Sequence record: NC_054892.1
Reading direction: 5' to 3' (one strand)
DNA: 48,939 nt
Origin: Escherichia phage vB_EcoS_PHB17
Shown here: positions 2,677-40,711 of the stretch, in pieces
Position numbering within the stretch: the stretch's first letter is position 1
Layout of the letters: every line of letters starts with the position of its first letter
Position numbers and translations under genes: made by a program
Notes under the pieces: model-generated
What the model saw: the letters and a program-made list of their open reading frames with translations, nothing else
Told to the model about the DNA's origin: nothing
Databases searched by the model: none

Positions 2677-3216
2677 ATGATTGAGTTTGAAATTTGGGGC
2701 AAGACCTACCGCCTACCAACGCCAAACAAAGGGGTTGTGATTGTCGATTATGATGGCACGCTTTCGGACGGTGCGCACCGCTTGCACCTGTTGCCAACAA
2801 AGGATCTGCATTTAACTGAATCCTGGAGTGAGTTTAATCGCGCGGCAATTCACGACACGCCAATCAGAGATACGATAGCCGTAATCAATGGCCTTTGGGT
2901 ATCCGGTTTCGCCGTTATCGTGCTAACAGGCCGTAGCGATGAGGTAGAGCGTGAATCTCACGAATGGCTAAACTACCACGGCGTCAAATACGATTACATG
3001 ATCATGCGCCGCGCCACTGATAACCGCAAAGACACGATCATCAAAGAGGAGGTGTTACGCGCGATAGGGCTTGAAAACATCGTGTGCGCCTTTGACGATT
3101 CGCCGTCTGTTATCCCATTTATGCGCAGCCTGGGGATCACAACATACGCGGTCACGCATTACGAGCAACCGCATTCACATTTGCAGAGTCACGGCGTGGA
3201 GGAGTTGCCAGAATGA
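2677..3216 (+). CDS. HAD-superfamily phosphatase / nucleotidase-like protein (179 aa)
   Basis: HAD motif I VIVDYDGTL, motif II VLTGR, C-terminal DDS; GGAG RBS before ATG 2677. Confidence 0.65.
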   Translation: MIEFEIWGKTYRLPTPNKGVVIVDYDGTLSDGAHRLHLLPTKDLHLTESWSEFNRAAIHDTPIRDTIAVINGLWVSGFAVIVLTGRSDEVERESHEWLNYHGVKYDYMIMRRATDNRKDTIIKEEVLRAIGLENIVCAFDDSPSVIPFMRSLGITTYAVTHYEQPHSHLQSHGVEELPE

Positions 3217-3368
3217 TTAGCGCATGGTTTTTGGTGTCGATCACATATTACTGCGGGTTGCAGCCGATTGAATTTACCAGCCACAAGGCTTGCATTGAGG
3301 CGCGGGAGACTATCAAAAAGAACACTCCAGGCAGTTGGGCTAATATTTACGTTTGCGTGAAGAAATAG
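3213..3368 (+). CDS. small hydrophobic protein (51 aa)
   Basis: ATG overlaps stop of phosphatase gene (ATGA); hydrophobic N-terminus. Confidence 0.3.
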   Translation: MISAWFLVSITYYCGLQPIEFTSHKACIEARETIKKNTPGSWANIYVCVKK

Positions 3369-3381
3369 AGGGTTTATCGAA

Positions 3382-3564
3382 ATGATGCAAGACAAGTACG
3401 GCGATCACATTCGCATTTACACCACGGAAAGCAAGCAAAACGTTTTTGTTGATTGCTCCTATGAGGATTCACCGGAAAAACTACAGTTTCGCGCCGTCCT
3501 GGGCTTGCGTGAAGCCAGGGAGCTTGTGCGGCAATTGCAAAAGGCAATGGGAGAGCTTGAGTAA
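3382..3564 (+). CDS. hypothetical protein (60 aa)
   Basis: ORF in operon context. Confidence 0.4.
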   Translation: MMQDKYGDHIRIYTTESKQNVFVDCSYEDSPEKLQFRAVLGLREARELVRQLQKAMGELE

Positions 3565-3637
3565 TGAGCACAACACAAATGATTGTCCTGGCGGCAATCA
3601 TGATCACCAACAGCATTGTAATTTCGTTGCTTATCCA

Positions 3638-3657
3638 ATAGCACGAATTGCTAAAAC
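3638..3657 (+). promoter_or_regulatory. conserved motif copy ATAGCACGAATTGCTAAAAC
   Basis: Exact consensus; followed by hairpin with TATAGT. Confidence 0.5.
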
Positions 3658-3711
3658 ACGAAATCGTGGTTGCGGTATAGTAACCAAATACCAAACAACG
3701 AGGAACTAAGC

Positions 3712-3969
3712 ATGAAAACTTTAGAGCAGATTTTCACCGAAATTGAAAAGCACGGCGTTACCGCCAAAAACAAGATCTTAACCAGTGGCGCAACTCACCT
3801 GGCGCAAGATAGCGACGGCGCTGTTTACGGCTACAAGGGAAAGCCAAAGCACATGCAGGATTTTGAAGAATGGCAATCCGGCGACGGTGAAGATAGCCGC
3901 GCTGTGATTTATTGCGGCGAGTTTGCAGAGCCGGAAAACTGGAAAGTGTGTGTTTGGGAATTACCATAA
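3712..3969 (+). CDS. hypothetical protein (85 aa)
   Basis: ATG 3712 (MKTLEQ) with ACGAGGAA RBS, downstream of motif and hairpin. Confidence 0.5.
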   Translation: MKTLEQIFTEIEKHGVTAKNKILTSGATHLAQDSDGAVYGYKGKPKHMQDFEEWQSGDGEDSRAVIYCGEFAEPENWKVCVWELP

Positions 3970-4032
3970 GACTTTCCGCAAGGCTGTTTTCGAGCGGCCT
4001 TATTGAAAGCAACCAACAAAGGAGAAATGAGA

Positions 4033-4611
4033 ATGGCTAAAATCATCGTACTGAATGCACCGCCAGGAGCGGGAAAGGACACAATCGGAGGGCTGGTTAA
4101 AGATGAGTCGCCAGTGCCTTTGCGCCTGTTGAGCTTCAAAGAGCCAATGTTTGAAATTGCGCTCGCTATCCTGGGGCCTGGTAAGTATCGCGATTTCTTG
4201 ACGGCATACAACGACCGCGAGCAGAAAGAAAAGCCGCATGACTTCCTGAATGGTATGACTTGCCGCGAGTTCATGATCTGGATTAGTGAGGACGTGATGA
4301 AGCCGCGATTTGGTAATGGGTATTTCGGCAAGCGGTTTGCAGAGGAAGCGGAGCGCAACGACATTCCAGTTATTTGCACCGATGGCGGATTCCCTGACGA
4401 AATCATAGAGTTAATACGTGGCGGTCATGAGGTGAAAGTTTGCCGACTACATCGCCAGGGTTACACCTTTCAGGGAGATAGCCGCGATTACATCCGAATC
4501 AGTAGCGCGCGCGACAACGCCAGTGGATGCCGTGAATATGATTACACGTTGACGGATGGCAATCCAATGCAAACGGTGCGTCAAATTATCGCTGACCACC
4601 TGGCGAAATAG
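4033..4611 (+). CDS. P-loop nucleotide kinase (dNMP kinase-like, 192 aa)
   Basis: Walker A NAPPGAGKDT close to N-terminus, resembling phage deoxynucleoside monophosphate kinases; AAAGGAG RBS. Confidence 0.6.
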   Translation: MAKIIVLNAPPGAGKDTIGGLVKDESPVPLRLLSFKEPMFEIALAILGPGKYRDFLTAYNDREQKEKPHDFLNGMTCREFMIWISEDVMKPRFGNGYFGKRFAEEAERNDIPVICTDGGFPDEIIELIRGGHEVKVCRLHRQGYTFQGDSRDYIRISSARDNASGCREYDYTLTDGNPMQTVRQIIADHLAK

Positions 4612-4627
4612 CACGAATTGCTAAAAG
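4608..4627 (+). promoter_or_regulatory. conserved motif copy ATAGCACGAATTGCTAAAAG
   Basis: Overlaps TAG stop of kinase gene; TATAAT at 4646-4651. Confidence 0.5.
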
Positions 4628-4681
4628 CGTGGCGAAAGGCTCCGCTATAATGCACACATACCAACAAAAGAGGAACACAAG

Positions 4682-5083
4682 ATGAAGAAAGAAATCCTGA
4701 AGTTAGGCAAAGGCTCCGTCATGCGCTGCATTAATTCAGATCTGAATTGCTTTAAGGTTGGCGAGAACTACATCACCGGAAAGCGACTGTTTATCGGAAA
4801 TCGCCATATCGGGATCGGTCGATTCATAGTGAACCACCACAAAAACGGCTATTTCGGCATTGAGGATTTGAGCGGCGTTATCGCGCGTTTCGTACTGGTC
4901 AAGGATAGCAAAGGCCGTTATGCGAAACACGACACTAAGCCTAACCCACACAAAGACCGTCGAAACGGCAAGCGCGATGCTCGACGCTTCCGCCGCTACG
5001 CTCGCCAGATGTTGAAGTGTGACAAACCAGGCACTTTGGAGTATAAAGTTATCTCAAATTTGGCGCGTAACGTAGGGAAATGA
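4682..5083 (+). CDS. hypothetical protein (133 aa)
   Basis: ORF with AAGAGGAA RBS after motif and hairpin. Confidence 0.5.
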   Translation: MKKEILKLGKGSVMRCINSDLNCFKVGENYITGKRLFIGNRHIGIGRFIVNHHKNGYFGIEDLSGVIARFVLVKDSKGRYAKHDTKPNPHKDRRNGKRDARRFRRYARQMLKCDKPGTLEYKVISNLARNVGK

Positions 5084-5173
5084 CATGCACGCAAAACCAC
5101 CATTTGATTTTCACAAGGCCGTTTTAATCGGCCTTACCATTCTAACAGTGATGTACAGCATAAGGGGTGTTCT

Positions 5174-5425
5174 ATGGTTCGCAACGCATTAAAACGACTC
5201 ATCAAACCAGTTTACCGCGTGGTTGTGGAAATGAGTGAGAGCGGCGCGGTATACGTCCAGCGTAAAAACATGTTCGGTAATGGCTGGCACTATATCAGCG
5301 ATGTGTTCGGCGCGATTGAGTTTGAAAGCGTCGTTAGCGCCTGGGCTTACATCGAAGTGATGCACGAATACCGAGAATATGAATGCTCTATTCTGATCCG
5401 GTTTGATTGCGAGGGTTTAGAATAA
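5174..5425 (+). CDS. hypothetical protein (83 aa)
   Basis: ORF with AAGGGG upstream. Confidence 0.5.
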   Translation: MVRNALKRLIKPVYRVVVEMSESGAVYVQRKNMFGNGWHYISDVFGAIEFESVVSAWAYIEVMHEYREYECSILIRFDCEGLE

Positions 5426-5607
5426 TGTGGAACTGGAAAAAGCTGTTACTGACCGTTTTTCTTGCCCTGCTTGGTTCAACGCTGATTGAAGGTTTTACTA
5501 ACTTCCTGGGTGCGTTGGTTATGGCAATCGCCTATTCGATCCCGTCCTACTATGACGGCAAGAAAGCCGGAGGCCGTGAAGTGTTCGAGCTAATCAAGCG
5601 CAAATAG
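5425..5607 (+). CDS. small membrane protein (60 aa)
   Basis: ATG 5425 overlapping previous stop; two hydrophobic helices; stop TAG is part of motif copy. Confidence 0.45.
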   Translation: MWNWKKLLLTVFLALLGSTLIEGFTNFLGALVMAIAYSIPSYYDGKKAGGREVFELIKRK

Positions 5608-5623
5608 CACGAATTGCTAAAAC
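5604..5623 (+). promoter_or_regulatory. conserved motif copy ATAGCACGAATTGCTAAAAC
   Basis: Overlaps TAG stop; hairpin AGGAGCA..TGCTCCT containing TTATAG. Confidence 0.5.
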
Positions 5624-5688
5624 TAAATCAGGAGCATTTGTTATAGTGCTCCTCGTTGAGTTAAGCAACCAATCAAGGAGAAAAGGAA

Positions 5689-5970
5689 ATGGCAAGCATC
5701 CGTAAACACCTGGTCAACGCATTTGAGAATTTCGCAATCAGCATGGGCTGGGAGGATAGCGCAAAGCATAAACGCGGTATTCGTCATTGTGGCTATAAGA
5801 ATTCCCGCCAGTGGGCACGAATGATGGCTGAGATTTACGAGGAGCCGTTAAGCGTTGGCGGCTGGAATAGCGCAATCATCGAAATGATCGAGGAGGCGGC
5901 GCGTACCGATACCCCGCTAACGCAACACGACTACGACGCATTTGTAGAGGAGGAAATTTCATGCTGGTAA
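5689..5970 (+). CDS. hypothetical protein (93 aa)
   Basis: ORF with AAGGAG RBS after motif and hairpin. Confidence 0.5.
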   Translation: MASIRKHLVNAFENFAISMGWEDSAKHKRGIRHCGYKNSRQWARMMAEIYEEPLSVGGWNSAIIEMIEEAARTDTPLTQHDYDAFVEEEISCW

Positions 5971-6176
5971 GTGAAATGCCGAAAACGGTTAAGATTCGCA
6001 CTGATTACAACGGCTCGCCGTGGATTCAGGCGAACAAGGTTTACGAGGCAACGTTAGAGGAAACTGGTAACTTTGCCGGATGTTATAAAGCAATGGGCGA
6101 GCTTAAATCGCCTTTCTATACGCGGCTTGAACATTCCGTTCATATCGGCGGTCAAGATTGGGAGATTGTAGAATGA
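5961..6176 (+). CDS. hypothetical protein (71 aa)
   Basis: ORF with GAGGAGG RBS, overlaps previous gene. Confidence 0.5.
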   Translation: MLVSEMPKTVKIRTDYNGSPWIQANKVYEATLEETGNFAGCYKAMGELKSPFYTRLEHSVHIGGQDWEIVE

Positions 6177-6913
6177 AATACGTAAAACCTACCACTAACG
6201 GCGTTGATTTCACGGCTGGCAAACTTTACGAAGTGATCAAAGAGATTTCAGGCGCTCGCGTTATCGTTAAAAACGACGAAGGGGAGGAGGTTATTGTAAG
6301 GATTGACGGAAAAGAATCAGTGCGCCTTAATTGGCCTGGAAAGTTCAACCTGGTTGAATTCCCCACTATTTCGGAAGCCGTTAAACATGTAACGGCGTCA
6401 GTGTTGAGAACTGAGTGCAATCCGGGCGGAACCATCTATAACGCAGTGAGAGAAAGTGATCACTTAAAGGCGGCTCGCCAAATCGCTGATAACGCGGCAA
6501 AGCTGGCGGCTCAAGTTGCATACCCGAAAAACGGTTATTTCCTCAATAGCAAAGGCCAGTTGGAGCAGTGGCAGAATGGGGAGCTTGTTGTGACAATCGG
6601 CAACGTTGATTCTACGGCGGCAAAAGGTGAGGGTTGGCGCGTTCACAATGCAGGTATGCAAATCACTAGCGGAAACTTTAAACCGAGAGAGCTAACCGTT
6701 GTCCTGAATGGTAAGCAGTACACCGAAAGCCAGATCGCAAAGCTGGAAAAGGAAGCGGAACAACACAAGGCTGATTGCATCAAGGCGGAGGCTGTTATTG
6801 ATCAGCTTTATGACATGTTTCCGCAAGTGCGAAATGCAGAGCAACTAATTGCAGCCGTCAAGAGTGCGAAAATCTTCTCTGATGCGTTTCTTGAACTGCA
6901 AAAAGTCAAATAG
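6173..6913 (+). CDS. hypothetical protein (246 aa)
   Basis: ATG 6173 overlapping previous stop; long ORF ending in TAG of motif copy. Confidence 0.55.
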   Translation: MKYVKPTTNGVDFTAGKLYEVIKEISGARVIVKNDEGEEVIVRIDGKESVRLNWPGKFNLVEFPTISEAVKHVTASVLRTECNPGGTIYNAVRESDHLKAARQIADNAAKLAAQVAYPKNGYFLNSKGQLEQWQNGELVVTIGNVDSTAAKGEGWRVHNAGMQITSGNFKPRELTVVLNGKQYTESQIAKLEKEAEQHKADCIKAEAVIDQLYDMFPQVRNAEQLIAAVKSAKIFSDAFLELQKVK

Positions 6914-6929
6914 CACGAATTGCTAAAAC
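6910..6929 (+). promoter_or_regulatory. conserved motif copy ATAGCACGAATTGCTAAAAC
   Basis: Overlaps TAG stop; hairpin GAGGACA..TGTCCTC. Confidence 0.5.
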
Positions 6930-6989
6930 TTCCGCGAGGACATTTGTTAAAGTGTCCTCATTGAAGCGAAGCACACAAAGGAGCTTAAA

Positions 6990-7202
6990 ATGAAAATTCG
7001 AATCACCAAAGTTGACATTGACCGCAACGACGGAAGTATTACCCTGGAGCAATGCGGGTTTAAAGTTGGTGACATTGTGGAGGTTGACGGATTCTTTCGC
7101 GATGGTTCTTACTGCGTGTTAGCAATCCGCAACACAGAAGAAATCCGAATCGGTGATAACATCGGCGTAAACCATGACGAATGCGAGGTAGTAGAAGAAT
7201 GA
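6990..7202 (+). CDS. hypothetical protein (70 aa)
   Basis: ORF with AAAGGAG RBS. Confidence 0.5.
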   Translation: MKIRITKVDIDRNDGSITLEQCGFKVGDIVEVDGFFRDGSYCVLAIRNTEEIRIGDNIGVNHDECEVVEE

Positions 7203-7435
7203 TCACGATTAACCTTTCACGCGAGCAAGCAGAAATTTTTATGAGCACAGTTGGCGAATTCGCCACGATTAACGGTGTTGTAGCTGAAATCTCAAGCCAG
7301 ATTGAAAATCAGATTTTCCCGCGCACAACTGATGCGGCAGGGCTGGCTGTGTGGAAGCACGAAAGCGGATTGAATGATCGACTGATTGAGCAGTGGAAGC
7401 GCAAACACGAAACGGCGGAGGAGGTGGGGTTATGA
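7199..7435 (+). CDS. hypothetical protein (78 aa)
   Basis: ATG 7199 overlapping previous stop (ATGA). Confidence 0.45.
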   Translation: MITINLSREQAEIFMSTVGEFATINGVVAEISSQIENQIFPRTTDAAGLAVWKHESGLNDRLIEQWKRKHETAEEVGL

Positions 7436-7755
7436 TTTGGATTCATCGCTTTGAAATGTCAAGCGGTCACGGAAAGCGCCAGGTAACGAAAGTTTATGAT
7501 CGAGATGATGTGGCGCTTGAGAATCAAATGCTTTTGGGCGGAGAGCTTGAGGAGTACGAATCTGTTGCACTAATCCAGGCAATCAACGATCTGGTTTTAG
7601 ATGAGGTTTCTTGTCTAATTGACGACATGAGCACTCCAGGTTTAGGATCGCCGCGAGAACTTGAGGCGGGTTCGCCGGAGTGGGATTGTTGGAAGGTTAA
7701 AACGCTCAACAACATTCGAAACATCCTTTATGGAAAATTTGAAAAAATAGCATAG
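7432..7755 (+). CDS. hypothetical acidic protein (107 aa)
   Basis: ATG 7432 after GGAGGAGG; D/E-rich. Confidence 0.5.
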   Translation: MIWIHRFEMSSGHGKRQVTKVYDRDDVALENQMLLGGELEEYESVALIQAINDLVLDEVSCLIDDMSTPGLGSPRELEAGSPEWDCWKVKTLNNIRNILYGKFEKIA

Positions 7756-7759
7756 TGTG

Positions 7760-7795
7760 AAAGCGCCTCAAACGCATTCTAAGAGGCGCTAAATT
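7760..7795 (+). terminator. terminator-like hairpin
   Basis: GCGCCTC..GAGGCGC stem with 13-nt loop and weak T tract. Confidence 0.35.
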
Positions 7796-7940
7796 TAGCA
7801 AGGTGATTGCATGGATAACTACGAAAAACCGTCGCAGTGGTGCGCACGTAAGCAAAATGAAGCATTAGAGACTGGCGACCAACAAGCCGCTTTAAATTAC
7901 TTTCAGATGTATCAACTATGGGTTAGCAGAGGGCTTTAAA

Positions 7941-8171
7941 ATGTTTGGACTGAATGAAGCGCATTGGAATGTTGTTAAGCGTGCGGCGCGTGGCTTGAAT
8001 GATGCGATCAGTGAGCTACCGAAAGAGCAGCGCAAAAACGAGAAGGTTGTAATTGACGTGATCACCAAACATCACAAACCTGTTGAGCTTTTGATTGATC
8101 GCTACAAGTTTGTTTGGACTGCTGGTTATCTGGCGGGGCGTGTTGGTTCGAAAAGTGCGGATTACGAATAA
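7941..8171 (+). CDS. hypothetical protein (76 aa)
   Basis: ORF after small 42-aa ORF (7811-7939). Confidence 0.45.
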   Translation: MFGLNEAHWNVVKRAARGLNDAISELPKEQRKNEKVVIDVITKHHKPVELLIDRYKFVWTAGYLAGRVGSKSADYE

Positions 8172-8175
8172 GCTG

Positions 8176-8204
8176 TTGACTATAGCCGCGCTGATTGGTA
8201 ACAT
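8176..8204 (+). promoter_or_regulatory. candidate sigma70-like promoter TTGACT-N17-TAACAT
   Basis: Hexamers in intergenic region 8172-8335. Confidence 0.3.
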
Positions 8205-8335
8205 TCACCACGTAAACAAAAGAGCGGCCTAGCAGCCGAACGAGTAGCGCGATAGCTACACGACAACGTCGGCGTGCATGGTGTTTTCGCCCTATAAGAC
8301 GCGTCGCCATTTTTACCCATTCAGGAGTAAACGCA

Positions 8336-8494
8336 ATGACAAAAGAAGTCGCAAAGGTAACAATCATCATTGAGCGAAACGGCGTAAAAACCAAATTCAA
8401 AAAGCGCTTCAAGAAAGGCGATGCCGCATTAGGCCGTGTTGGTGACTTCATGATCAAGTTGCAGGAAGATAAACCGGATGAAGTGGAAAGTTAA
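8336..8494 (+). CDS. small basic protein (52 aa)
   Basis: ATG 8336 with CAGGAG RBS; below track cutoff. Confidence 0.3.
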   Translation: MTKEVAKVTIIIERNGVKTKFKKRFKKGDAALGRVGDFMIKLQEDKPDEVES

Positions 8495-8662
8495 ATTAAC
8501 GATCCGTCGCATGGGGCGCAATTGCTCCTCATGCCGTCAAGAATTCGAATGCGAGGTTGAAGCGCAAAACACTGTTGACGCGATTCAATGCGCTAAAGTT
8601 CTATCAGGTGCAGATCCAGAAACGCACCAGTTTTCAATAAACTTTGTAAGAGGTATTTAATC

Positions 8663-8893
8663 ATGATGATGTTTGGTTTTGGTTTTGTGGCTGCAATTGT
8701 TGTGCTGATCCTGTTAAGCCGTTTCGCTCTAAACTACGCGGTTAAAAAAGGCTGGTACGCCTCCGCGATCTGGAATGAAAAAGAGAAGGTTTGGAAGGTT
8801 CGCGGTCGATACCTTAGCATTGCAGGTAAGATTTTCGACGGCATTCAAAATAAACGGGCTGGTGAACCTGGTTCCGTCAAGTATCTGGATTAA
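8663..8893 (+). CDS. small membrane protein (76 aa)
   Basis: N-terminal transmembrane helix; AAGAGG RBS; followed by strong terminator. Confidence 0.45.
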   Translation: MMMFGFGFVAAIVVLILLSRFALNYAVKKGWYASAIWNEKEKVWKVRGRYLSIAGKIFDGIQNKRAGEPGSVKYLD

Positions 8894-8897
8894 CAAC

Positions 8898-8923
8898 TAA
8901 CCCCGCGTTTGCGGGGTTTTTTA
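8898..8923 (+). terminator. rho-independent terminator
   Basis: CCCCGC-GTTT-GCGGGG stem followed by TTTTTT. Confidence 0.8.
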
Positions 8924-8965
8924 TTGCCTGTTATAATCGGACTCCAACAAAGGAGGGCAATTATC

Positions 8966-9487
8966 ATGGCTAAAAACGTCGAACCTGCTGTAAAGGCATT
9001 GAATTTTAAAGAGCTATACAATAAGAAATATGGCGACATTGCGCGATTGAGCAACGCGCACACACTTACGCCGGAGCAAGTTTTTGATCTGGCGGTTCGC
9101 TATTTTGAATGGGCGGAAAAAAATCACATTGAAGCGGCGGAAACTGCATCCTTTCAGGGCGATGTATACGAATCAAAAATCCATAAGCCGCGAATCTTTA
9201 CCCTTAACGGCTTGCGCCTGTTTTGCGGATTCTCTGAGGCCGTTACTCTGAAATGGCGCAGGGAGCCAGGATTCAGCGAAGTGATGGAATTCATCGACAC
9301 GGTAATCAATGAGCAGAAATTCCAGCTTGCGGCGAATAACCTTGTAAACGCCTCGTTTATCGCCAAAGATATTGGCGTTGATAAGCCAGCAAGCATTAAC
9401 GTTGAAGCAAACGCAAACGCCAGCGTTGACGCAGTGACGGCGGAAGAAGTAAAAGACGCGGTGCGGGATATCTTAGGAGAAATCTGA
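8966..9487 (+). CDS. putative terminase small subunit (173 aa)
   Basis: ATG 8966 after AAGGAGG; sits immediately upstream of terminase large subunit; assigned by position only. Confidence 0.5.
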   Translation: MAKNVEPAVKALNFKELYNKKYGDIARLSNAHTLTPEQVFDLAVRYFEWAEKNHIEAAETASFQGDVYESKIHKPRIFTLNGLRLFCGFSEAVTLKWRREPGFSEVMEFIDTVINEQKFQLAANNLVNASFIAKDIGVDKPASINVEANANASVDAVTAEEVKDAVRDILGEI

Positions 9488-9489
9488 TC

Positions 9490-11058: not shown

Positions 11059-11076
11059 CACTAATTGCTAAAAAAC
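11055..11076 (+). promoter_or_regulatory. conserved motif copy ATAGCACTAATTGCTAAAAAAC
   Basis: Overlaps TAG stop of terminase large subunit; followed by TGATATAAT and terminator hairpin. Confidence 0.5.
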
Positions 11077-11085
11077 TGATATAAT

Positions 11086-11113
11086 CAGGGCTGGACTTTT
11101 CCAGCCCTTTTTA
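11086..11113 (+). terminator. rho-independent terminator-like hairpin
   Basis: AGGGCTGG-ACTTTT-CCAGCCCT then TTTTT, between terminase and portal genes. Confidence 0.6.
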
Positions 11114-11129
11114 TTATGGAGATCAGGTT

Positions 11130-29634: not shown

Positions 29635-29643
29635 TAGATCACC

Positions 29644-32245: not shown

Positions 32246-32285
32246 TTAACCAGGGGCGGAAACTCCCCGTTTAGAGGATCATGAA

Positions 32286-32705: not shown

Positions 32706-32715
32706 TTGGCAGGAA

Positions 32716-32748
32716 AAAGAAAACCCCGCATTGCGGGGTTTTTTATTA
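32716..32748. terminator. bidirectional rho-independent terminator
   Basis: AAAACCCCGC-ATT-GCGGGGTTTTTT between convergent SSB and tail fiber genes. Confidence 0.8.
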
Positions 32749-34899: not shown

Positions 34900-34914
34900 T
34901 TGTAAATCTCCTAT

Positions 34915-34935
34915 ATAGCACGAATTGTTAATGAC
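34915..34935 (+). promoter_or_regulatory. conserved motif copy ATAGCACGAATTGTTAATGAC
   Basis: Plus-oriented copy 16 nt from start of minus-strand tail fiber gene; second partial copy at 34946-34960. Confidence 0.4.
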
Positions 34936-34962
34936 AAGGCCGATAATAGCACTATTGCGCCC

Positions 34963-34988
34963 ATAAAAAAACCCCGCCGGAGCGGGGC
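34963..34988 (-). terminator. rho-independent terminator (minus strand)
   Basis: CCCCGC-TCCG-GCGGGG plus T8 on minus strand after primase-like gene. Confidence 0.7.
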
Positions 34989-35002
34989 AAAGTCAGTGGC
35001 AA

Positions 35003-35950
35003 CTAAAGGAAAGTTTCAGGCTTATACAGCTTTCTTTCTATCCCTTGTTTGAAATTATCGTTAATCGGGATCATCACGTCAAGTTCTCTTTCTTCGGCGG
35101 CAATCAACACATCCTGATCGGTAGACTTGCACACTACGCGCATTTTTCTGTTTCCTTTATACCTGTACGCCACGATCTCAAGATTGTACTGTGAGAAACA
35201 ACACCAAACCTCTTGCCCCGTCGAAAGGTGGATATGTTGAGCATCAACCCAATCAACGCACAAATAGATCGTGTTTTCAGTTTTGCCAGTCACCGCAACT
35301 GAGCCGCGCGTGTAATCCTTCGCATAAAAACTTTGCTTGCCGTTCTCATCAATGAAAAGGATGTTACACATTTCATCATCAAGTTCATCGTCATGCACCA
35401 GGTAGCACGGTATGGCGTGAATAAGCGATTCTCCGCCATTCTCAAGCGTTTTAACGCCTACGGAATACATTTCATCACCAGGAAGTGCTATCCCTTCAAA
35501 AACGCTTAGAGGCGTCTTACTGCGTAATTCCGTGCGCTCCATTACAGAGGCGCAATTCTCATGCGGAGCCTGAGATCCGAAAGTGTAACCGGATGCACGG
35601 CTTGCACGCTTATTGGCCTTTATCCGGTACTCTTGCGGAACCTTTCCGAGAAAGCGACCCAGGATGTTAATTACTTCGCTGTATGGCTCTCCTGTTAGCT
35701 TCATCATCCAGCCCACGCCGGAATCGTTACCACAGCCGTTGCACACCGCGCCGCCGTCGCCGTCCTGACTCAATTTGTCAGTCCACCTAAAACGGTCTTT
35801 ACCTCCGCAATTAGGGCAGGGCTGGTGCTTTTTGTTGAAAACATCCGAGCTTAAACCGCATATTGACTGCAACGCATCGCGCCACAACCCTTTCATATAC
35901 GGTAAAACCTCCTCTTTCTGAAACATCATGTTTTCGTTAATGTCGCTCAT
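35003..35950 (-). CDS. DNA primase-like protein with zinc ribbon (315 aa)
   Basis: CPNCGGKDRFRW ... CNGCGN zinc-ribbon motif near N-terminus. Confidence 0.6.
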   Translation of the reverse strand: MSDINENMMFQKEEVLPYMKGLWRDALQSICGLSSDVFNKKHQPCPNCGGKDRFRWTDKLSQDGDGGAVCNGCGNDSGVGWMMKLTGEPYSEVINILGRFLGKVPQEYRIKANKRASRASGYTFGSQAPHENCASVMERTELRSKTPLSVFEGIALPGDEMYSVGVKTLENGGESLIHAIPCYLVHDDELDDEMCNILFIDENGKQSFYAKDYTRGSVAVTGKTENTIYLCVDWVDAQHIHLSTGQEVWCCFSQYNLEIVAYRYKGNRKMRVVCKSTDQDVLIAAEERELDVMIPINDNFKQGIERKLYKPETFL

Positions 35951-35959
35951 AATTCACCC

Positions 35960-36000
35960 ATAAAAAAATCGCGTAGCCGGATGATACCAGATACGCGATC
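35960..36000 (-). terminator. terminator-like hairpin (minus strand)
   Basis: ATCGCGTA..TACGCGAT stem with long loop and T7 on minus strand after HTH gene. Confidence 0.4.
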
Positions 36001-36006
36001 AGTGTT

Positions 36007-36450
36007 TTAGCTATTTGTGCTGTTTTCAAAGTCGGACGCACGAACAACGCGGAGCATTTCGCGCTTTTCACACTTGAGTGTAAGCGGTTTTCCGTTGCTA
36101 TCAAATTTCAGATCTGGGCGGCAGAATGAAGCGCGATAACCCTTGCAGCCTTGCCGCTTGTAATCTTGATGCACCTTTTGAGCGCCTTGCGCTGAAATCA
36201 TTCCGCGTTTCTTCCATTGCTGGATCGTCTGAAACGACACTTTAAGGCGGCGTGCCATTTCTGATTGAGTGCCATAATATTCTAACAGGATGTCAAGCCG
36301 CGCACGCAATCCGGCCTTTACTTCATCTTTCAGCACGTAGTAACCTGTTTTGCGGCGGCGTGGCTTTTTGTCTTTTCCGCGTCGAGTTCCGTTATTACCA
36401 TTGATTGTGCGTTTATCTACTTCACCAGTTGAAACAGCGATTCTTTTCAT
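36007..36450 (-). CDS. helix-turn-helix DNA-binding protein (147 aa)
   Basis: HTH segment QSEMARRLKVSFQTIQQWKKRG; basic N-terminal region; start at MKRIAVS. Confidence 0.6.
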   Translation of the reverse strand: MKRIAVSTGEVDKRTINGNNGTRRGKDKKPRRRKTGYYVLKDEVKAGLRARLDILLEYYGTQSEMARRLKVSFQTIQQWKKRGMISAQGAQKVHQDYKRQGCKGYRASFCRPDLKFDSNGKPLTLKCEKREMLRVVRASDFENSTNS

Positions 36451-36463
36451 AGTAAATTCCCCA

Positions 36464-36483
36464 ATAGCACTTTTTGTTAAAAT
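36464..36483 (+). promoter_or_regulatory. conserved motif copy ATAGCACTTTTTGTTAAAAT
   Basis: In divergent region between HTH gene and helicase; TGTAGTATAGC downstream. Confidence 0.5.
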
Positions 36484-36539
36484 CACTTATGTTTAGGCTT
36501 GTAGTATAGCGTCAAACGAAACAACGTTAAAGGTTTAAA

Positions 36540-38540
36540 ATGGCAATACCAAACATTAAAAAACAATTATCAGCGTTAGGCGATGAGGTTATAAAGGCTA
36601 TTCAAGATCGCTTTACCGTTGGCGAAATTAGCCCTTACCCGTATCAGTGCGTTGCGTATTCCGAGATCGCAAAGCGCATGAAAAATTACGAGCATCCTTT
36701 CTTTGTCAAGGCGTCCGTATCTGCTGGTAAAACAATCATCTTTGCGATGGTTGCGGCGCAGTGTAAAAAAATGGGCTTGAAAATGATGGTTTTGGCTCGC
36801 CAGGCTGAAATTGTGGATCAGGATTCAGAGGAGATCACAAATTTTGGTGTTCCAAACTCCATCTATTGCGCCGGACTCAACACGAAAAGCGCGTATTTTC
36901 CAATTGTCGTGGGTTCGGAGGGAACCGTTGCAAACGGCTTGTTTAAAGCGTTAGGTGACTATGTTCCGCATGTAATCGGTATTGATGAATGTCACCAGGT
37001 GGATTGGGAAGATTTAGCCGATTCGATAGAGAACGAGGAAACTTTCGAGCAAATGACCACAAAGAAAGGCGTTCGCGTTCTGAATGGTGACGGCTCCCAG
37101 GTTTTCAACAAAGACGGCGAACCAATGGAGGGAACCGGACGCAGCCAATACACAATAATCATTCGTGAAATGCAGCGCCGTTGCAAAGAGGCTTACGGGC
37201 ATGAATTGCGCATATTCGGAATGACTGGATCGGAATTTCGCGGCGTCGTTCCAATCCTGGTTGAAGATAAAAAACAAAAAGGTTTCTGGCGTGAGCAGGT
37301 AACGAACATTGATACAAATTACCTGATCGAGTTCGGTTCGGTTGTTCCCACTAACTTTGGCAACGTTGATGGTTTGGGTTATGACCTTTCAGAGTTCACG
37401 GCGTCCAGTGAGGATGGCGTTGCAGACTTTGATCAGAAAACTTTGCGCAAGATGGAAGAGAAGATCCACAATGACGCAACAATGACGCAAAAAATAATGT
37501 CACGCGTGCATGAGATCTGCAAAGACCGCAACGGCGTTTTAGTAACTTGTGCAGGTGAGCGCCATTGCAAAGAAGCGGCGGCGGCTTTGCCACCTGGTAC
37601 ACCGTACCGCATCATCACTGGTAAGACTGGCGAGAAACAGCGTAAAGAGTGGTTGCGCGAGGCATACGATGGAAAAGTAAAATACATCTTCCAGGTTATG
37701 GCCTTAACAACTGGCGTTAACGTTCCGTTTTGGGATACGTCTGTAATCCTTCGCAAAATCGGATCGCTTACCTTGCTGATTCAGCTTTTAGGGCGCGGTA
37801 TGCGACTGTTGAAGAAATGGCACATTGAACAAGGTTTTGTTAAAAACGATCACCTTGTTTTAGATTTTGCTGGCTGCATGGATGAGTTAGGGCAACTTTA
37901 CTTCGATCCGATACTTGAGCAAGCGCAATTCCAGCGCCGCCACGACAACGGAAAAGATCCTAAATTCTGCCCGATTTGCGGAACGGAAAATTCATTCTAT
38001 GCACGCCGTTGCATAAGGGTTGATGAAAACGGAAATCGTTGTGAGCACTTTTGGAAATTCAGAGTTTGTGAGGATCAGATTGACCCAAGAACAAAGAAAG
38101 TGATTGTTAAAGGTTGCGGAACCAAAAACGACGTTGTAGCGCGAATTTGCCGCCATTGTGACGTATCACTAATTGATCCAAACGAGAAATTGAGCGGAAA
38201 GCACTACACAAAAAACGACTGGTGCAACGTGAAATCGTTCCGTGTTGATATGACGAAAAACCAGAAAGGGATCGTATTCTGCTATGAGCTTGAGGCGCAC
38301 GGAGAAACGTTCAAAGCATACGAGCGCTTTTTCCCTGAGTCTGACGCACAGATCTGTAAAACGCTTTGGCGTCAAACAGCGCTTAAACACATTCCAGATC
38401 GCAGAATCGCGGGGATGGTTGCCAGCTATCGCAATGCGCGTAAAATCATGAGCATGGCACATCACATTTTACCGCCTGTTAAGGTTACGCACCGCAAAAA
38501 CGCAAAAGGCGAGGATATAATTTATCATCGGGAGTTCTAA
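36540..38540 (+). CDS. SF2 ATP-dependent helicase (666 aa)
   Basis: Walker A SVSAGKT, DECH box, C-terminal Cys clusters. Confidence 0.8.
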   Translation: MAIPNIKKQLSALGDEVIKAIQDRFTVGEISPYPYQCVAYSEIAKRMKNYEHPFFVKASVSAGKTIIFAMVAAQCKKMGLKMMVLARQAEIVDQDSEEITNFGVPNSIYCAGLNTKSAYFPIVVGSEGTVANGLFKALGDYVPHVIGIDECHQVDWEDLADSIENEETFEQMTTKKGVRVLNGDGSQVFNKDGEPMEGTGRSQYTIIIREMQRRCKEAYGHELRIFGMTGSEFRGVVPILVEDKKQKGFWREQVTNIDTNYLIEFGSVVPTNFGNVDGLGYDLSEFTASSEDGVADFDQKTLRKMEEKIHNDATMTQKIMSRVHEICKDRNGVLVTCAGERHCKEAAAALPPGTPYRIITGKTGEKQRKEWLREAYDGKVKYIFQVMALTTGVNVPFWDTSVILRKIGSLTLLIQLLGRGMRLLKKWHIEQGFVKNDHLVLDFAGCMDELGQLYFDPILEQAQFQRRHDNGKDPKFCPICGTENSFYARRCIRVDENGNRCEHFWKFRVCEDQIDPRTKKVIVKGCGTKNDVVARICRHCDVSLIDPNEKLSGKHYTKNDWCNVKSFRVDMTKNQKGIVFCYELEAHGETFKAYERFFPESDAQICKTLWRQTALKHIPDRRIAGMVASYRNARKIMSMAHHILPPVKVTHRKNAKGEDIIYHREF

Positions 38541-38542
38541 TT

Positions 38543-38962
38543 ATGGTTACTGACAAGGGCGATTATCTGGAGTATTACGAGCGCGATCCGAGCGACACGC
38601 GAAAGGAAGATTCTCACCAGGTTGATTGTGTGGCGTGGTTGCGCCACTTTTATCCCTGGCTTTTATTCTGGCATACAGTAAACGAGGGGCAAAAGACGAT
38701 CACCAGCGCATTGAGGGATGAGCAAGCAGGATTGAGAAAGGGCGTTAGTGATTTCGTTATCCTGATTGGTATTAACAGCCGTTACCCATTCGCGGCTATT
38801 GAACTAAAGCGCGTAAACAAGTCTGGTAAAGGCAAGGCGTCACCAGTCAGCGACGAACAAAAGGGATTTTTACGCGATGTTCGCCAGCGTGGAGGATTCG
38901 CGGCGGTGGCTTACGGATTCGAGCAATTCAAATTAGCGATTGCAGATCTTTTGCATAAATAG
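38543..38962 (+). CDS. VRR-NUC domain nuclease (139 aa)
   Basis: DFVIL ... ELK PD-(D/E)xK-type motif; GGGAG RBS. Confidence 0.6.
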   Translation: MVTDKGDYLEYYERDPSDTRKEDSHQVDCVAWLRHFYPWLLFWHTVNEGQKTITSALRDEQAGLRKGVSDFVILIGINSRYPFAAIELKRVNKSGKGKASPVSDEQKGFLRDVRQRGGFAAVAYGFEQFKLAIADLLHK

Positions 38963-38978
38963 CACGAATTGCTAAAAC
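38959..38978 (+). promoter_or_regulatory. conserved motif copy ATAGCACGAATTGCTAAAAC
   Basis: Overlaps TAG stop of VRR-NUC gene; hairpin GGCGCA..TGCGCC then CATAAT. Confidence 0.5.
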
Positions 38979-39148
38979 AGGCGCAACGGAATGCGCCATA
39001 ATGCACACATCGAAACAAACAAGGAATTAATCATGAAATACATTTTTAATATGGCGGCAAGCGTTGTATTGGGAGCGGCGGTTACTGCTTTCTTTTTGTG
39101 GGTTATCTCCCTGGCTGGCAACTTTAACGGATTTTGAGGATCAGAAAA

Positions 39149-39895
39149 ATGGCTAAAGACGTTTTAGATAATTCAACTATTGACGGCGTGGCAGAAGTTG
39201 ACGAAATGGATTTTCACGAATTGCAATATGGTAAGTATTCAGATATTGCATTGCGTTCTGGCGGTCACTATCAACCAGTAAGAGAAAACACTTATTTCAA
39301 GGTTAGCGGCAACCGTTATGCTGGAAGTAATACGCCGGACGTTGTGCGGGATTTGTGGGCGACTCCTAGCGAGGTTGTGGAATACATGGAAAGCCGTTTC
39401 GGGAAATATGATCTTGATGCGGCGGCAAGCGACGAAAACAAAGTATGTGATAAATTCTACAGCAAGGAAACGAACTGTTTAAAACGCTGGTGGGGTAGCA
39501 AAAAGCACGTATGGTTAAACCCGCCTTACTCTAACCCCGATCCGTTTGTACTCAAAGCCATTGAGCAAATGGAGCATGACAACCAGATTGATATTTTATT
39601 ACCTGCTGATAACTCAACAGCATGGTTTAAAGACGCGCAAAAGAATGCGGCGGAAATCATCTGGATTACTGGCGACACATGGAAAGGCGAGGACGGGCGC
39701 GAATACAGCCGAACAGGACGATTAGCCTTTATTTCTGGCTTGACTGGCGAACCAGTGCAGGGAAACAATAAAGGTAGCGTGATTTTCGTCATGAGAACAC
39801 TTAAAGAAGGTGAGCAACAGAAAACTCATTATGTTGCCATTACTGAAATCTGTCCATCTGTTAAAAATCGCCGCGCAAAGGCAAGGAGTATTTAA
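39149..39895 (+). CDS. dam: DNA N6-adenine methyltransferase (phage Dam family, 248 aa)
   Basis: DLWATP, DLDAAA and NPPYS motifs; ATG 39149 after GAGGA. Confidence 0.8.
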   Translation: MAKDVLDNSTIDGVAEVDEMDFHELQYGKYSDIALRSGGHYQPVRENTYFKVSGNRYAGSNTPDVVRDLWATPSEVVEYMESRFGKYDLDAAASDENKVCDKFYSKETNCLKRWWGSKKHVWLNPPYSNPDPFVLKAIEQMEHDNQIDILLPADNSTAWFKDAQKNAAEIIWITGDTWKGEDGREYSRTGRLAFISGLTGEPVQGNNKGSVIFVMRTLKEGEQQKTHYVAITEICPSVKNRRAKARSI

Positions 39896-40125
39896 TGTTA
39901 TCAGAAAATAATCAATGGGATCTTTTTGTTGGCATGGTTTGCGGTCTGCTGGCAAAGCATGAATATAACGGAAATGTTTATGAAATGGCTACCAGCCTGG
40001 ATATGACTTTTGAGGAGGTCAAGCAAAAGCCGATTCATTTGTGGATTGAGCACCTTGAGGCCGAATTGATGGAATACAAAAACAGCCGCGAGGGGCGCTA
40101 TAACTTCAACTCAAATTTCCACTAA
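39895..40125 (+). CDS. hypothetical protein (76 aa)
   Basis: ORF overlapping Dam stop. Confidence 0.45.
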   Translation: MLSENNQWDLFVGMVCGLLAKHEYNGNVYEMATSLDMTFEEVKQKPIHLWIEHLEAELMEYKNSREGRYNFNSNFH

Positions 40126-40145
40126 ATAGCACTAATTGCTAAAAC
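40126..40145 (+). promoter_or_regulatory. conserved motif copy ATAGCACTAATTGCTAAAAC
   Basis: Directly after TAA stop; hairpin CCCGC..GCGGG. Confidence 0.5.
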
Positions 40146-40200
40146 CCGCTCCGGCGGGTTTGTTATTATGCACTCATCGAAACGAAACAAGGAAAACAGA

Positions 40201-40377
40201 ATGATTATTTACAGCAAATCAGCATTTGACGCCGCGCAATCAATCGCACGCGATGCGGTCGAGGGAAAATCTGAAAATGGTTTTGAATTTGATTGGTCTG
40301 CTGCAATGGTTATGCTTCGCGTTGCATACGGTCATTATCCTTTAGATTTCGCGGAGAAATATTATCGTGAAGGTTGA
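40201..40377 (+). CDS. hypothetical protein (58 aa)
   Basis: ATG 40201 with AAGGAA RBS after motif and hairpin. Confidence 0.4.
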   Translation: MIIYSKSAFDAAQSIARDAVEGKSENGFEFDWSAAMVMLRVAYGHYPLDFAEKYYREG

Positions 40378-40615
40378 AACAGGACGCCAGGCAGTTTGGC
40401 AACACGCAAAGGAATGCGGGTTAGATGAGAAAATAGCACTAATTGCTAAATACTTCGACATCAAGGATGTTAGTATTATTGGCAACGGCAAGATGTCATA
40501 TATTGACGAAAGGCCGCGAAAGGTTCACAGGGTTCCCGCCGTTCCATCAATCCAGTTTTTCAGGGATGAAAAGGCAAAGGCGGAGGCCGCAAAGAAAGCA
40601 CAAAAAAGAAGGTAG
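40367..40615 (+). CDS. hypothetical basic protein (82 aa, GTG start)
   Basis: ORF with alternative start; a motif copy is translated in frame as IALIAKY. Confidence 0.3.
   Translation: MKVETGRQAVWQHAKECGLDEKIALIAKYFDIKDVSIIGNGKMSYIDERPRKVHRVPAVPSIQFFRDEKAKAEAAKKAQKRR
40433..40452 (+). promoter_or_regulatory. conserved motif copy inside a predicted ORF
   Basis: ATAGCACTAATTGCTAAATAC lies within ORF 40367-40615. Confidence 0.4.
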
Positions 40616-40711
40616 GTTGATTGTATGCGTGGTTATTTTGCTGTATGCTTTGCGCCGATTGTCGGATGGCTGGCAATGTATTACCTGATTATGATGTAAG
40701 AGGATCTCAAA

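What the first reader, a model, noticed from the sequence alone, without database searches (positions are those of the whole stretch)
3213..40699. Many very small hydrophobic ORFs placed directly behind motif or hairpin modules
Several 24-60-aa ORFs with a single hydrophobic helix and a usable RBS sit at operon entry points or overlap neighbouring stops (3213-3368, 3564-3641, 5425-5607, 39033-39137, 40625-40699). Standard ORF callers miss them. Small membrane peptides in phage early regions often act on host membrane proteins.
Basis: inference. Interest (0 to 1): 0.3.

Follow-up and report, generated by a model that had tools for sequence, protein, structure and literature searches.

The report
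Small membrane-protein genes in T1-like phage
The tiny ORFs in this T1-like coliphage (vB_EcoS_PHB17) are conserved genes rather than chance ORFs, though one (B) rests on a single relative; four of the five listed encode 24-60-residue membrane peptides of unknown function, and two of them plus one extra are missing from the deposited annotation, including one found in about 180 related phage records and in phage T1 itself.

Summary
The window is the complete genome of Escherichia phage vB_EcoS_PHB17 (Drexlerviridae). All five ORFs exist exactly as described. Sequence alone does not separate them from chance: about 3 hydrophobic small ORFs with an SD are expected in six frames, and 4-5 are seen.

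Comparative data settle the question.
- 40625-40699 (24 aa) is the most notable. Its family (M..P..MY..M, 21-31 aa) lies just upstream of the Mre11-like exonuclease gene in 45 loci and about 180 phage records. It is not annotated in T1, W011D, PaulSarasin, KLB26 or PMBT35 (nor on record for PHB17), but its 29-30-aa versions are annotated elsewhere.
- 39033-39137 (34 aa) belongs to a family found in 156 phage records. It is always the first cistron behind the repeated intergenic module, in at least three genome positions.

- 3213-3368 is not a membrane peptide (phrog_5579, predicted small alpha/beta fold).
- 5425-5607 has two hydrophobic segments.
- Only one ORF sits behind a module.
- Three of the five are already annotated in GenBank.

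Function is untested. The most likely reading is inner-membrane microproteins expressed by translational coupling.

The parts
3213..3368 (+). ORF A, 51 aa. Real gene (PHB17 gp10, phrog_5579, T1 ST69 family) but not a membrane peptide. Start overlaps the polynucleotide-kinase stop (ATGA).
   Evidence: phrog_5579, E 4.3e-9, full length; 16 aa variants including T1; median dN/dS 0.07; shifted frames 0.93 and 1.86; AF2 beta-beta-alpha-beta, pLDDT 76.6
3564..3641 (+). ORF B, 25 aa, one TM-length helix. Start overlaps the upstream stop (TAATG); its TAG stop is the first triplet of the next intergenic module. Not on record as annotated. Only one homologue found (W011D).
   Evidence: W011D L001 1199-1282, 62% aa; one pair, pN/pS 0.39, CI 0.18-0.74
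5085..5192 (+). Family with conserved PPFDFHxA...Y..R..LW..H. Not on record for PHB17; annotated in PaulSarasin (bas09_0078), PMBT35 (XCD29900) and T1 (ST67). Starts 1 nt after the upstream stop and overlaps the next gene by 19 nt.
   Evidence: 15 variants; median dN/dS 0.28
5425..5607 (+). ORF C, 60 aa. Two hydrophobic segments joined by a polar turn (E-x-GFTN), then a conserved basic tail (Y-x-DGKK-x-G-x-R). Probably a helical hairpin with both ends in the cytoplasm. PHB17 gp16. Start overlaps the upstream stop (TAATG) and the stop lies in the next module.
   Evidence: KLB26 MVRO074 note 'transmembrane and signal peptide'; 30 variants; median dN/dS 0.45
38957..39032 (+). Intergenic module in front of D: AAATAGCACGAATTGCTAAAAC, GC hairpin (ggcgca-acggaa-tgcgcc), CATAAT, spacer, AAGGA. 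The TAG is the stop of the VRR-NUC gene.
39033..39137 (+). ORF D, 34 aa, one TM helix, conserved C-terminal WVIxLAxxFxGF. First cistron behind the module. Its stop (TGA) overlaps the SD of the Dam methyltransferase gene (39149-39895). GenBank gp62 uses the unsupported upstream ATG at 38991.
   Evidence: median dN/dS 0.21; shifted frames 1.19 and 1.43; 156 phage records
40625..40699 (+). ORF E, 24 aa, essentially a bare TM helix (MRGYFAVCFAPIVGWLAMYYLIMM). It fills the gap between the 82-aa gene (40367-40615) and the Mre11/SbcD-like exonuclease gene (40712-41830). Its stop abuts the exonuclease SD (TAAGAGGA). Not annotated in W011D, PaulSarasin, KLB26, PMBT35 or T1, and not on record for PHB17.
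   Evidence: 45 loci, 32 nt variants; median dN/dS 0.35; shifted frames 0.57 and 1.50; pooled 0.55, CI 0.39-0.73

Best explanation
These are real small protein-coding genes of a T1-like lytic phage, embedded in its early and middle operons.

B, X, D and E each encode one membrane-spanning helix. C encodes a two-helix hairpin. A is a small soluble alpha/beta protein that does not belong with the rest.

Expression is by translational coupling or close spacing to the neighbouring cistrons. A, B and C start inside the upstream stop. E ends on the SD of the exonuclease gene. D ends on the SD of dam.

D is the first cistron of a unit headed by the repeated intergenic module.

The peptides most likely insert into the host inner membrane with the N-terminus in the cytoplasm, since each has a basic residue at positions 2-6. 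They most likely act there as accessory host-takeover or exclusion factors by binding membrane proteins or perturbing the membrane.

Shown here: existence, conservation, purifying selection in frame, hydrophobic character, operon geometry, annotation status. Inferred: translation, membrane insertion, topology. Speculative: any specific target.

My estimates that each is a translated gene are about 0.9 for X, C, D, E and A, and about 0.6 for B. I put membrane insertion of B, X, C, D and E, given translation, at about 0.8. I put action on host membrane or envelope functions at about 0.4.
For: Homologues with diverged sequence and intact frames: E in 45 loci with 32 distinct nucleotide versions, always next to the exonuclease gene, in Tempevirinae and Tunavirinae including T1, plus 37 and 142 phage records. 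D has 7 variants in loci and 156 phage records. X has 15, C 30, A 16 and B 2 variants.

Median dN/dS in frame, against the two shifted frames: A 0.07 (0.93, 1.86); B 0.24 (0.89, 0.90); X 0.28 (0.63, 1.59); C 0.45 (0.90, 1.17); D 0.21 (1.19, 1.43); E 0.35 (0.57, 1.50). Bootstrap upper limits of pooled pN/pS are all below 1.

E keeps M1, P10/11, Y19 and M23, and stays hydrophobic, at only 17-48% identity between most variants.

E stays intact when an HNH-type gene is inserted between it and the exonuclease gene (L038/L039).

Hydropathy: best 19-residue windows are 1.87-2.55 for B, X, C, D and E. T at codon position 2 is 0.38-0.56, against 0.25 T genome-wide.

SD sites and stop-start overlaps.

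The D start is supported by module geometry, with 70 nt from motif to ATG as at eight other modules, and by the homologues' N-termini.

No Rfam family, no tRNA and no better-than-shuffle RNA fold lies over E.
Against: There is no direct evidence of translation or membrane location.

Counted by sequence alone, hydrophobic small ORFs with an SD are no more frequent than chance.

B rests on a single homologue.

E is broken in two of about 47 Drexlerviridae loci: a stop at codon 3 in L045 and a frameshift in L046. So it is dispensable, at least in those records.

Constraint on E and C is only moderate (pooled pN/pS 0.55 and 0.69).

No peptide matches a family of known function.
Confidence: 0.72

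Rival explanations
1. Coupling or leader ORFs. E (before the exonuclease gene) and D (before dam) would be translated only to deliver ribosomes to, or tune, the downstream cistron. The peptide itself would have no function.
For: E's stop directly abuts the exonuclease SD in all clades, with a gap of 1-24 nt to the start. D's TGA overlaps the dam SD, and its homologues are followed at once by the next start (TAAATG, TAAaATG). Constraint on E is only moderate.
Against: Peptide features are conserved where nucleotides have diverged: M1, P10/11, Y19, M23 and uniform hydrophobicity in E, and WVIxLAxxFxGF in D. dN/dS is lowest in the ORF frame. E stays intact when an HNH-type gene separates it from the exonuclease gene. 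D sits in front of three different downstream genes. No SD-sequestering or other stable RNA structure is present (z-scores -0.43 to +2.17).
Confidence: 0.13
2. Membrane-damaging peptides, like type I toxins or lysis modulators. The bare hydrophobic helices (especially E and B) would depolarise or permeabilise the inner membrane to shut off the host or set lysis timing, rather than bind a specific host protein.
For: Size and composition (23-25 aa, almost entirely apolar, one N-terminal basic residue) resemble small hydrophobic toxins; this resemblance is from my own knowledge. E lies at the head of the block exonuclease-(SH3)-holin-endolysin-spanin, which is persistent in 508 of 522 Drexlerviridae (PMC13164509).
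Against: No match to any Pfam or NCBIfam model, which include type I toxin and holin families. E is separated from the holin gene (42131-42346) by the exonuclease and SH3 genes and a terminator-like hairpin at 42025-42050. E has no charged C-terminal tail.
Confidence: 0.12
3. Chance ORFs in spacer or regulatory DNA that are not translated. Their apparent conservation would reflect only DNA similarity between close relatives.
For: The count of hydrophobic small ORFs with an SD equals the chance expectation. At 82-85% nucleotide identity many clearly non-coding ORFs also give tblastn hits in W011D and PMBT35. B has only one homologue, at 79% nucleotide identity.
Against: For A, X, C, D and E the families extend to 20-50% amino-acid identity with the frame, start and stop preserved. 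The frame-specific dN/dS signal is absent from shifted frames. Several members were called independently by annotators of other phages.
Confidence: 0.04

Closest known systems
Annotated 'hypothetical protein' homologues of E: Klebsiella phage K50PH164C1 LOCUS38 (CAK6597150, 29 aa) and Escherichia phage WaterSpirit CDS0042 (30 aa)
   Same: Same family and same position directly upstream of the DNA-repair exonuclease gene, with the same core MWRL..P.P.II....MY..VM.
   Different: Those versions carry an extra N-terminal MRIII, which brings them to 90-93 nt, and they were called. The 23-24-aa versions are not annotated in W011D, PaulSarasin, KLB26, PMBT35 or T1, and PHB17's is not on record. No function is assigned anywhere.
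Phage T1 ST67 (36 aa) and ST69 (49 aa), hypothetical proteins
   Same: ST67 is a member of the X family (…PPSFQE…LKGVLWLLS). ST69 is a member of the A family (phrog_5579).
   Different: Only 30-45% identical. X is not on record for PHB17 even though T1 has its homologue. Function is unknown in both.
Bacterial small inner-membrane proteins that bind larger membrane proteins (AcrZ, MgtS, MgrB, CydX class; reviewed in PMC12648545)
   Same: Size (under 50 aa), a single TM helix, frequent omission from annotation, and expression from short tightly packed cistrons.
   Different: No sequence relationship. These ORFs are phage-encoded and no partner is known. The resemblance is by type only.
Phage inner-membrane exclusion and takeover proteins (T4 Imm, HK97 gp15), from my own knowledge
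   Same: Small phage-encoded membrane proteins expressed outside the lysis cassette that act on host membrane functions.
   Different: Those are 80 aa or longer, usually with two TM segments and defined phenotypes. Nothing here was tested, and no homology was detected.
Holins and pinholins of Drexlerviridae (window 42131-42346)
   Same: Small hydrophobic phage membrane proteins. E lies about 1.4 kb upstream on the same strand.
   Different: E has a single helix with no charged C-terminal domain, is not adjacent to the endolysin gene, and matches no holin model.

Membership tests
Bona fide protein-coding small gene (comparative criteria) | ORF with the same start, stop and frame kept in sequence-diverged genomes | tested here: met
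   E: 45 loci with 32 nucleotide versions. X: 15. C: 30. D: 7, plus 156 phage records. A: 16. B: only 2, which is weak. Exceptions for E are L045 (nonsense) and L046 (frameshift).
Bona fide protein-coding small gene (comparative criteria) | Purifying selection specific to the proposed frame | tested here: met
   Median in-frame dN/dS is 0.07-0.45 (E 0.35), against 0.57-1.86 in shifted frames. The bootstrap 95% upper limit of pooled pN/pS is below 1 for all six. B rests on one pair.
Bona fide protein-coding small gene (comparative criteria) | Translation initiation signal (SD at 4-12 nt, or a start overlapping the upstream stop) | tested here: met
   X has only a weak purine-rich site (GGGAA) but starts 1 nt after the upstream stop.
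Bona fide protein-coding small gene (comparative criteria) | Direct evidence of translation (ribosome footprints, peptide detection) | not testable with these tools
   No expression data are available. Literature searches found none for Drexlerviridae.
Membrane microprotein (single-pass or hairpin) | Apolar stretch long enough to span a bilayer (about 19 residues, mean Kyte-Doolittle above about 1.6) | tested here: met
   Best 19-residue windows: B 2.55, D 2.24, E 1.94, X 1.91, C 1.87. C has two segments. This is not met for A (1.21; AF2 models residues 5-10 as a beta-strand).
phrog_5579 (phage protein family of unknown function) | Full-length match to the family profile | tested here: met
   A matches at E 4.3e-9, residues 4-51 on profile positions 3-52 of 52. 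B, X, D and E match no PHROG. C has only weak hits (E about 0.01).
Curated small-toxin, holin and small-membrane-protein families (Pfam-A, NCBIfam) | Sequence match to a family model | tested here: not met
   None of the six window ORFs matches at E <= 1 in Pfam. The same six ORFs plus three further E variants have no match at E <= 10 in NCBIfam.
Holin | Gene adjacent to the endolysin gene in the lysis cassette, with a charged C-terminal cytoplasmic tail | tested here: not met
   E is separated from the holin (42131-42346) and endolysin genes by the exonuclease and SH3 genes. E ends in ...LIMM with no charged tail.
Regulatory leader peptide or coupling uORF | Downstream SD masked by an RNA structure that upstream translation opens, with a peptide sequence free to vary | tested here: not met
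   RNA folds of E plus the exonuclease start region in four clades are no more stable than shuffles (z -0.43 to +2.17). Peptide motifs are conserved. Simple termination-reinitiation coupling is not excluded.
   Met for D only. Its ATG is 70 nt after the motif, and all 7 D homologues examined are also first behind a module, in at least three genome positions. It is not met for A, B, C, X or E; B and C end at a module.

The most novel reading that the evidence does not exclude
The E family would be a functional partner of the gene block it precedes. It is a 21-31-aa bare transmembrane helix with conserved Pro and Met-Tyr. It is kept immediately upstream of the HTH-phosphoesterase ('DNA repair exonuclease') gene in the Tempevirinae and Tunavirinae sampled here, including T1. 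It could act as a membrane tether or regulator of the nuclease, or as a timing element for the exonuclease-holin-endolysin-spanin block. That would make it a family-wide core gene of the classic phage T1 that has been overlooked for decades.
Probability: 0.12. Interest if true: 0.55.

Novelty: new member of a known kind. Interest (0 to 1): 0.3.

Why it matters
Roughly half of T1-type phage proteins, predominantly small ORFs, have no known function (PMC13164509). These results show that annotation still omits conserved genes below about 30 codons, even in the T1 reference genome. One of them, E, lies next to a block the literature treats as core to the family. Adding B, X and E, and correcting the D start, would improve pangenome and 'core gene' analyses. 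It would also give a short list of six peptides cheap enough to synthesise or express for toxicity, exclusion and anti-defence screens. The work adds no new principle: small phage membrane proteins of unknown function are common.

Tried and rejected
1. Sequence-only enrichment test. Hydrophobic small ORFs with an SD are at chance level, so this cannot support the finding.

2. Census by tblastn against the closest whole genomes (W011D, PMBT35). It does not discriminate, because at 82-85% DNA identity non-coding ORFs also 'hit'.

3. Searches for more homologues of B. tblastn against the phage collection found nothing, probably because of the low-complexity filter. A distant DNA search found only W011D.

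4. The large protein database refuses queries under 40 aa. Searches with C and A returned only near-identical proteins.

5. Anchoring loci on the dNMP kinase or on the 133-aa protein alignment gave only 6 and 2 loci. The PNK and exonuclease anchors worked.

6. Pfam and NCBIfam gave no matches, and PHROGs matched only A.

7. RNA-element explanation for E. No Rfam hit, no tRNA, and folds no better than shuffles.

8. Stop-codon read-through fusing E to the exonuclease. The two are in frame in this window (87 nt apart), but the spacing between the E stop and the exonuclease start varies from 1 to 24 nt among relatives, so this was rejected.

9. Fold search with the A model. It found only uncharacterised small phage proteins, none at E <= 0.001.

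10. Literature searches for PHB17, for Drexlerviridae small membrane proteins, and for ribosome profiling found nothing on these ORFs.

Full report
IDENTITY OF THE WINDOW. The 48,939-bp window is a complete phage genome. It is contig IMGVR_UViG_2974745880. By exact-protein look-up it is Escherichia phage vB_EcoS_PHB17. Its closest deposited relatives are Drexlerviridae, roughly 82-85% identical in nucleotide sequence over the aligned stretches. W011D and PaulSarasin are Tempevirinae of the genus Changchunvirus. Salmonella phage PMBT35 and Klebsiella phage KLB26 are not placed in a subfamily in their records. Most genes are on the + strand, tightly packed, and grouped into short units.

THE OBSERVATION. 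All five ORFs exist with the stated coordinates. I label them as follows.
- A: 3213-3368, 51 aa.
- B: 3564-3641, 25 aa.
- C: 5425-5607, 60 aa.
- D: 39033-39137, 34 aa.
- E: 40625-40699, 24 aa.

Each has an SD or a start fused to the upstream stop: A ATGA, B and C TAATG, X TGAcATG.

Hydropathy supports one bilayer-length helix in B, D, E and X. Best 19-residue Kyte-Doolittle means are 2.55, 2.24, 1.94 and 1.91. C has two apolar segments (1.87; residues 7-21 and 27-43). A has none (1.21, and T at codon position 2 only 0.27).

IS IT MORE THAN CHANCE? Counting alone says no. Across the six frames there are 278 ATG ORFs of 20-60 aa. Of these, 7.6% reach the hydropathy threshold and 14% have an SD, so about three are expected to have both. 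Four are found by that rule, and five if D's short start is used. A census against the two closest whole genomes is also uninformative. At this DNA identity, plainly non-coding ORFs are 'conserved' as well. The question had to be settled with more distant relatives.

COMPARATIVE EVIDENCE. I collected 80 IMG/VR loci anchored on the exonuclease gene and 80 anchored on the polynucleotide-kinase gene, plus GenBank regions. All six ORFs have homologues whose sequences have diverged while frame, start and stop are kept.

Median Nei-Gojobori dN/dS in the proposed frame, with the two shifted frames of the same alignments in brackets:
- A: 0.07 (0.93, 1.86)
- B: 0.24 (0.89, 0.90)
- X: 0.28 (0.63, 1.59)
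- C: 0.45 (0.90, 1.17)
- D: 0.21 (1.19, 1.43)
- E: 0.35 (0.57, 1.50)

Bootstrapping over codons keeps pooled pN/pS below 1 for every family. B rests on a single pair and is the least secure.

ORF E. This is the most informative case. A 21-31-aa ORF occupies the gap directly upstream of the Mre11/SbcD-like 'DNA repair exonuclease' gene in 45 of the loci examined, in 32 distinct nucleotide versions.
- The members align without internal gaps. M1 and Y19 are invariant, M23 nearly so, a proline sits at position 10 or 11, and the composition is uniformly apolar. Identity to the window peptide is only 17-48% for all but the closest variant.
- The family includes phage T1 itself: MKLYFAVVLTPLISFSVMYFIIM at NC_005833 40740-40811, between ST17 and ST16.
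- tblastn with two variants finds full-length matches in 37 and 142 phage records.
- The ORF is not annotated in T1, W011D, PaulSarasin, KLB26 or PMBT35, and PHB17's is not on record.
- Where an extra MRIII start lengthens it to 90-93 nt it has been called as 'hypothetical protein', in K50PH164C1 LOCUS38 and WaterSpirit CDS0042. In phage tonijn the exonuclease CDS start was stretched across it.
- In L038 and L039 an HNH-type gene lies between E and the exonuclease gene, and E is still intact.
- It is broken in two loci, by a nonsense codon in L045 and a frameshift in L046.
- It is absent from Pantoea phage AAS23 (L089) and from the mEp021-like temperate phages whose exonuclease is about 64% identical.
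- Its stop abuts the exonuclease SD (TAAGAGGA). The RNA there folds no better than shuffled sequence, and no Rfam family matches. So conservation is not explained by an RNA element, and coupling, if any, is simple termination-reinitiation.

ORF D. Homologues share the C-terminal motif WVIxLAxxFxGF and occur in 156 phage records, mostly Klebsiella and Escherichia Drexlerviridae.
- In the window, D is the first cistron behind a copy of the repeated intergenic module. The module is AAATAGCACGAATTGCTAAAAC, then a GC hairpin, then a TATAAT-like hexamer, then an SD.
- D's ATG lies 70 nt after the motif. At eight other modules the distance is 70-81 nt.
- Every D homologue I inspected is likewise first behind such a module, but in different places. 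In the window it precedes dam. In L082, L089 and L174 it lies between the exonuclease and SH3 genes. In L146-L148 it lies in the early region.
- About one gene in seven follows a module, so three independent placements are unlikely by chance (about 0.003, a rough estimate).
- Four observations support the 34-aa start over the 48-aa start in GenBank gp62: the module geometry, the SD, the homologues' N-termini, and a 34-aa member in the protein cluster.
- The slot between the VRR-NUC and dam genes is variable. It holds no gene in W011D and PaulSarasin, and two or three other genes in KLB26 and PMBT35. Several of those begin with a hydrophobic signal-like or membrane segment.

ORFS A, B, C AND X.
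- A is PHB17 gp10, a member of phrog_5579 (E 4.3e-9) and of the T1 ST69 family. AlphaFold2 on a shallow alignment gives a beta-beta-alpha-beta fold (pLDDT 76.6) in which the apolar N-terminus is a strand. Structural neighbours are uncharacterised small phage proteins. It should be removed from the membrane-peptide list.
- C is gp16. Its family alignment shows a basic N-terminus, helix 1, a polar turn, a Gly-rich helix 2 and a conserved basic tail, so it is probably a hairpin. KLB26's annotators already noted a transmembrane domain.
- X has conserved PPFDFHxA, Y24, R27 and W31. It is annotated in PaulSarasin, PMBT35 and T1 (ST67), but is not on record for PHB17.
- B has one homologue, in W011D directly after the kinase gene. 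There the annotators called an opposite-strand ORF instead. B and C both end in the TAG that opens the next module, so they are the last cistrons of their units, not the first.

MECHANISM. Shown here: these are conserved, selected coding sequences placed for coupled translation within early and middle operons, and five of the six encode bilayer-length apolar segments. Inferred: they are translated and inserted into the inner membrane with the N-terminus inside, since each has a basic residue near that end. Speculative: what they do there. They match no curated family and no literature on them was found. I favour accessory roles at the host membrane, such as modulating host membrane proteins or excluding other phages. 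The two main rivals are that E and D matter only as coupling ORFs, and that the bare helices act as membrane-perturbing peptides. Peptide-level conservation, persistence of E when uncoupled by an inserted gene, and the varied downstream partners of D argue against the first. Nothing tested here decides the second.

VERDICT. The interpretation that these are small membrane-protein genes holds for four of the five ORFs. The finding is ordinary in kind: small phage membrane proteins of unknown function are common, and three of the five are already annotated. It does have one useful by-product. E is a widely conserved micro-gene that is not annotated in the phage T1 reference record, and D behaves as a module-led micro-gene cassette.

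Noticed in passing
window + strand motif starts 2034, 2355, 3642, 4612, 5608, 6914, 11059, 38963, 40130; - strand 48788, 47457, possibly 36019: A repeated intergenic module. It consists of AAATAGCAC(G/T)AATTGCTAAAAC, in which TAGCA-N5-TGCTA is a perfect palindrome and the TAG is usually the upstream gene's stop. This is followed by a GC hairpin of variable sequence, a TATAAT-like hexamer, an SD, and an ATG 70-81 nt after the motif. In the three modules I counted, the hexamer lies 22-23 nt after TTGCTA, too far for a canonical sigma-70 promoter, and the consensus scan does not call the modules. Read on the minus strand, the hairpin plus GTTTTAGCAA looks terminator-like. The same module occurs in T1, where GenBank labels the hairpins as rho-independent terminators.
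   Followed up: partly
window 38957-39137; L082 5115-5319; L089 6232-6448; L146 1512-1716; L174 about 5560-5740: The 34-aa D-family gene is always the first cistron directly behind the intergenic module, in at least three different genome positions. This suggests that module plus micro-gene moves as a cassette, or that the first position is selected.
   Followed up: partly
L001 1199-1282 (+) against annotated CDS 1210-1335 (-) = W011D gp26, MK778457 13841-13966: W011D's annotated opposite-strand 'hypothetical protein' lies over the homologue of ORF B and is probably a mis-call.
   Followed up: no
L180 (phage tonijn NC_049818) 403-869: The exonuclease CDS is annotated with a start about 84 nt too far upstream. 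It runs across the E homologue in another frame.
   Followed up: no
L008 1790-1903 (W011D gp61); L006 1958-2068 (KLB26 MVRO040); L005 2691-2801 (PMBT35); window 39895-40125: Relatives carry a further 36-37-aa single-helix gene right after dam. The window lacks it, and the N-terminus of its following gene (39895-40125) differs from the relatives' version.
   Followed up: partly
L038 and L039 3444-4004; L045 3914-3988; L046 3899-3990: In L038 and L039 an HNH-type gene is inserted between E and the exonuclease gene, and E stays intact. In one record E has a stop at codon 3, and in another it has a frameshift.
   Followed up: partly
window 40712-41830: The 'DNA repair exonuclease' protein has a sub-threshold N-terminal helix-turn-helix match (Sigma70_r4_2, 24.3 bits against a cut-off of 25.7). 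No Pfam nuclease or phosphoesterase domain reached E <= 0.01.
   Followed up: no
window 1601-1759, 2427-2597, 7811-7939, 8336-8494: Four further small (42-56 aa), non-hydrophobic ATG ORFs with an SD lie in gaps on the coding strand. They are intact in W011D and/or PMBT35. I did not check whether PHB17 annotates them.
   Followed up: no
window 47182-47268 (-): A 28-aa hydrophobic ATG ORF with an SD (MRLASILAVVFACLPKATFTRWLMIWLS). It lies in a region where two overlapping 73-aa minus-strand ORFs compete (47165-47386 and 47199-47420). The gene model there is unresolved.
   Followed up: no
window 41833-42003: A 56-aa DUF7244 protein (E 3.9e-26), the standalone SH3-like component of the Drexlerviridae lysis region described in PMC13164509. 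KLB26's annotation note gives its homologue a transmembrane domain; I saw no bilayer-length apolar stretch in the sequence.
   Followed up: partly
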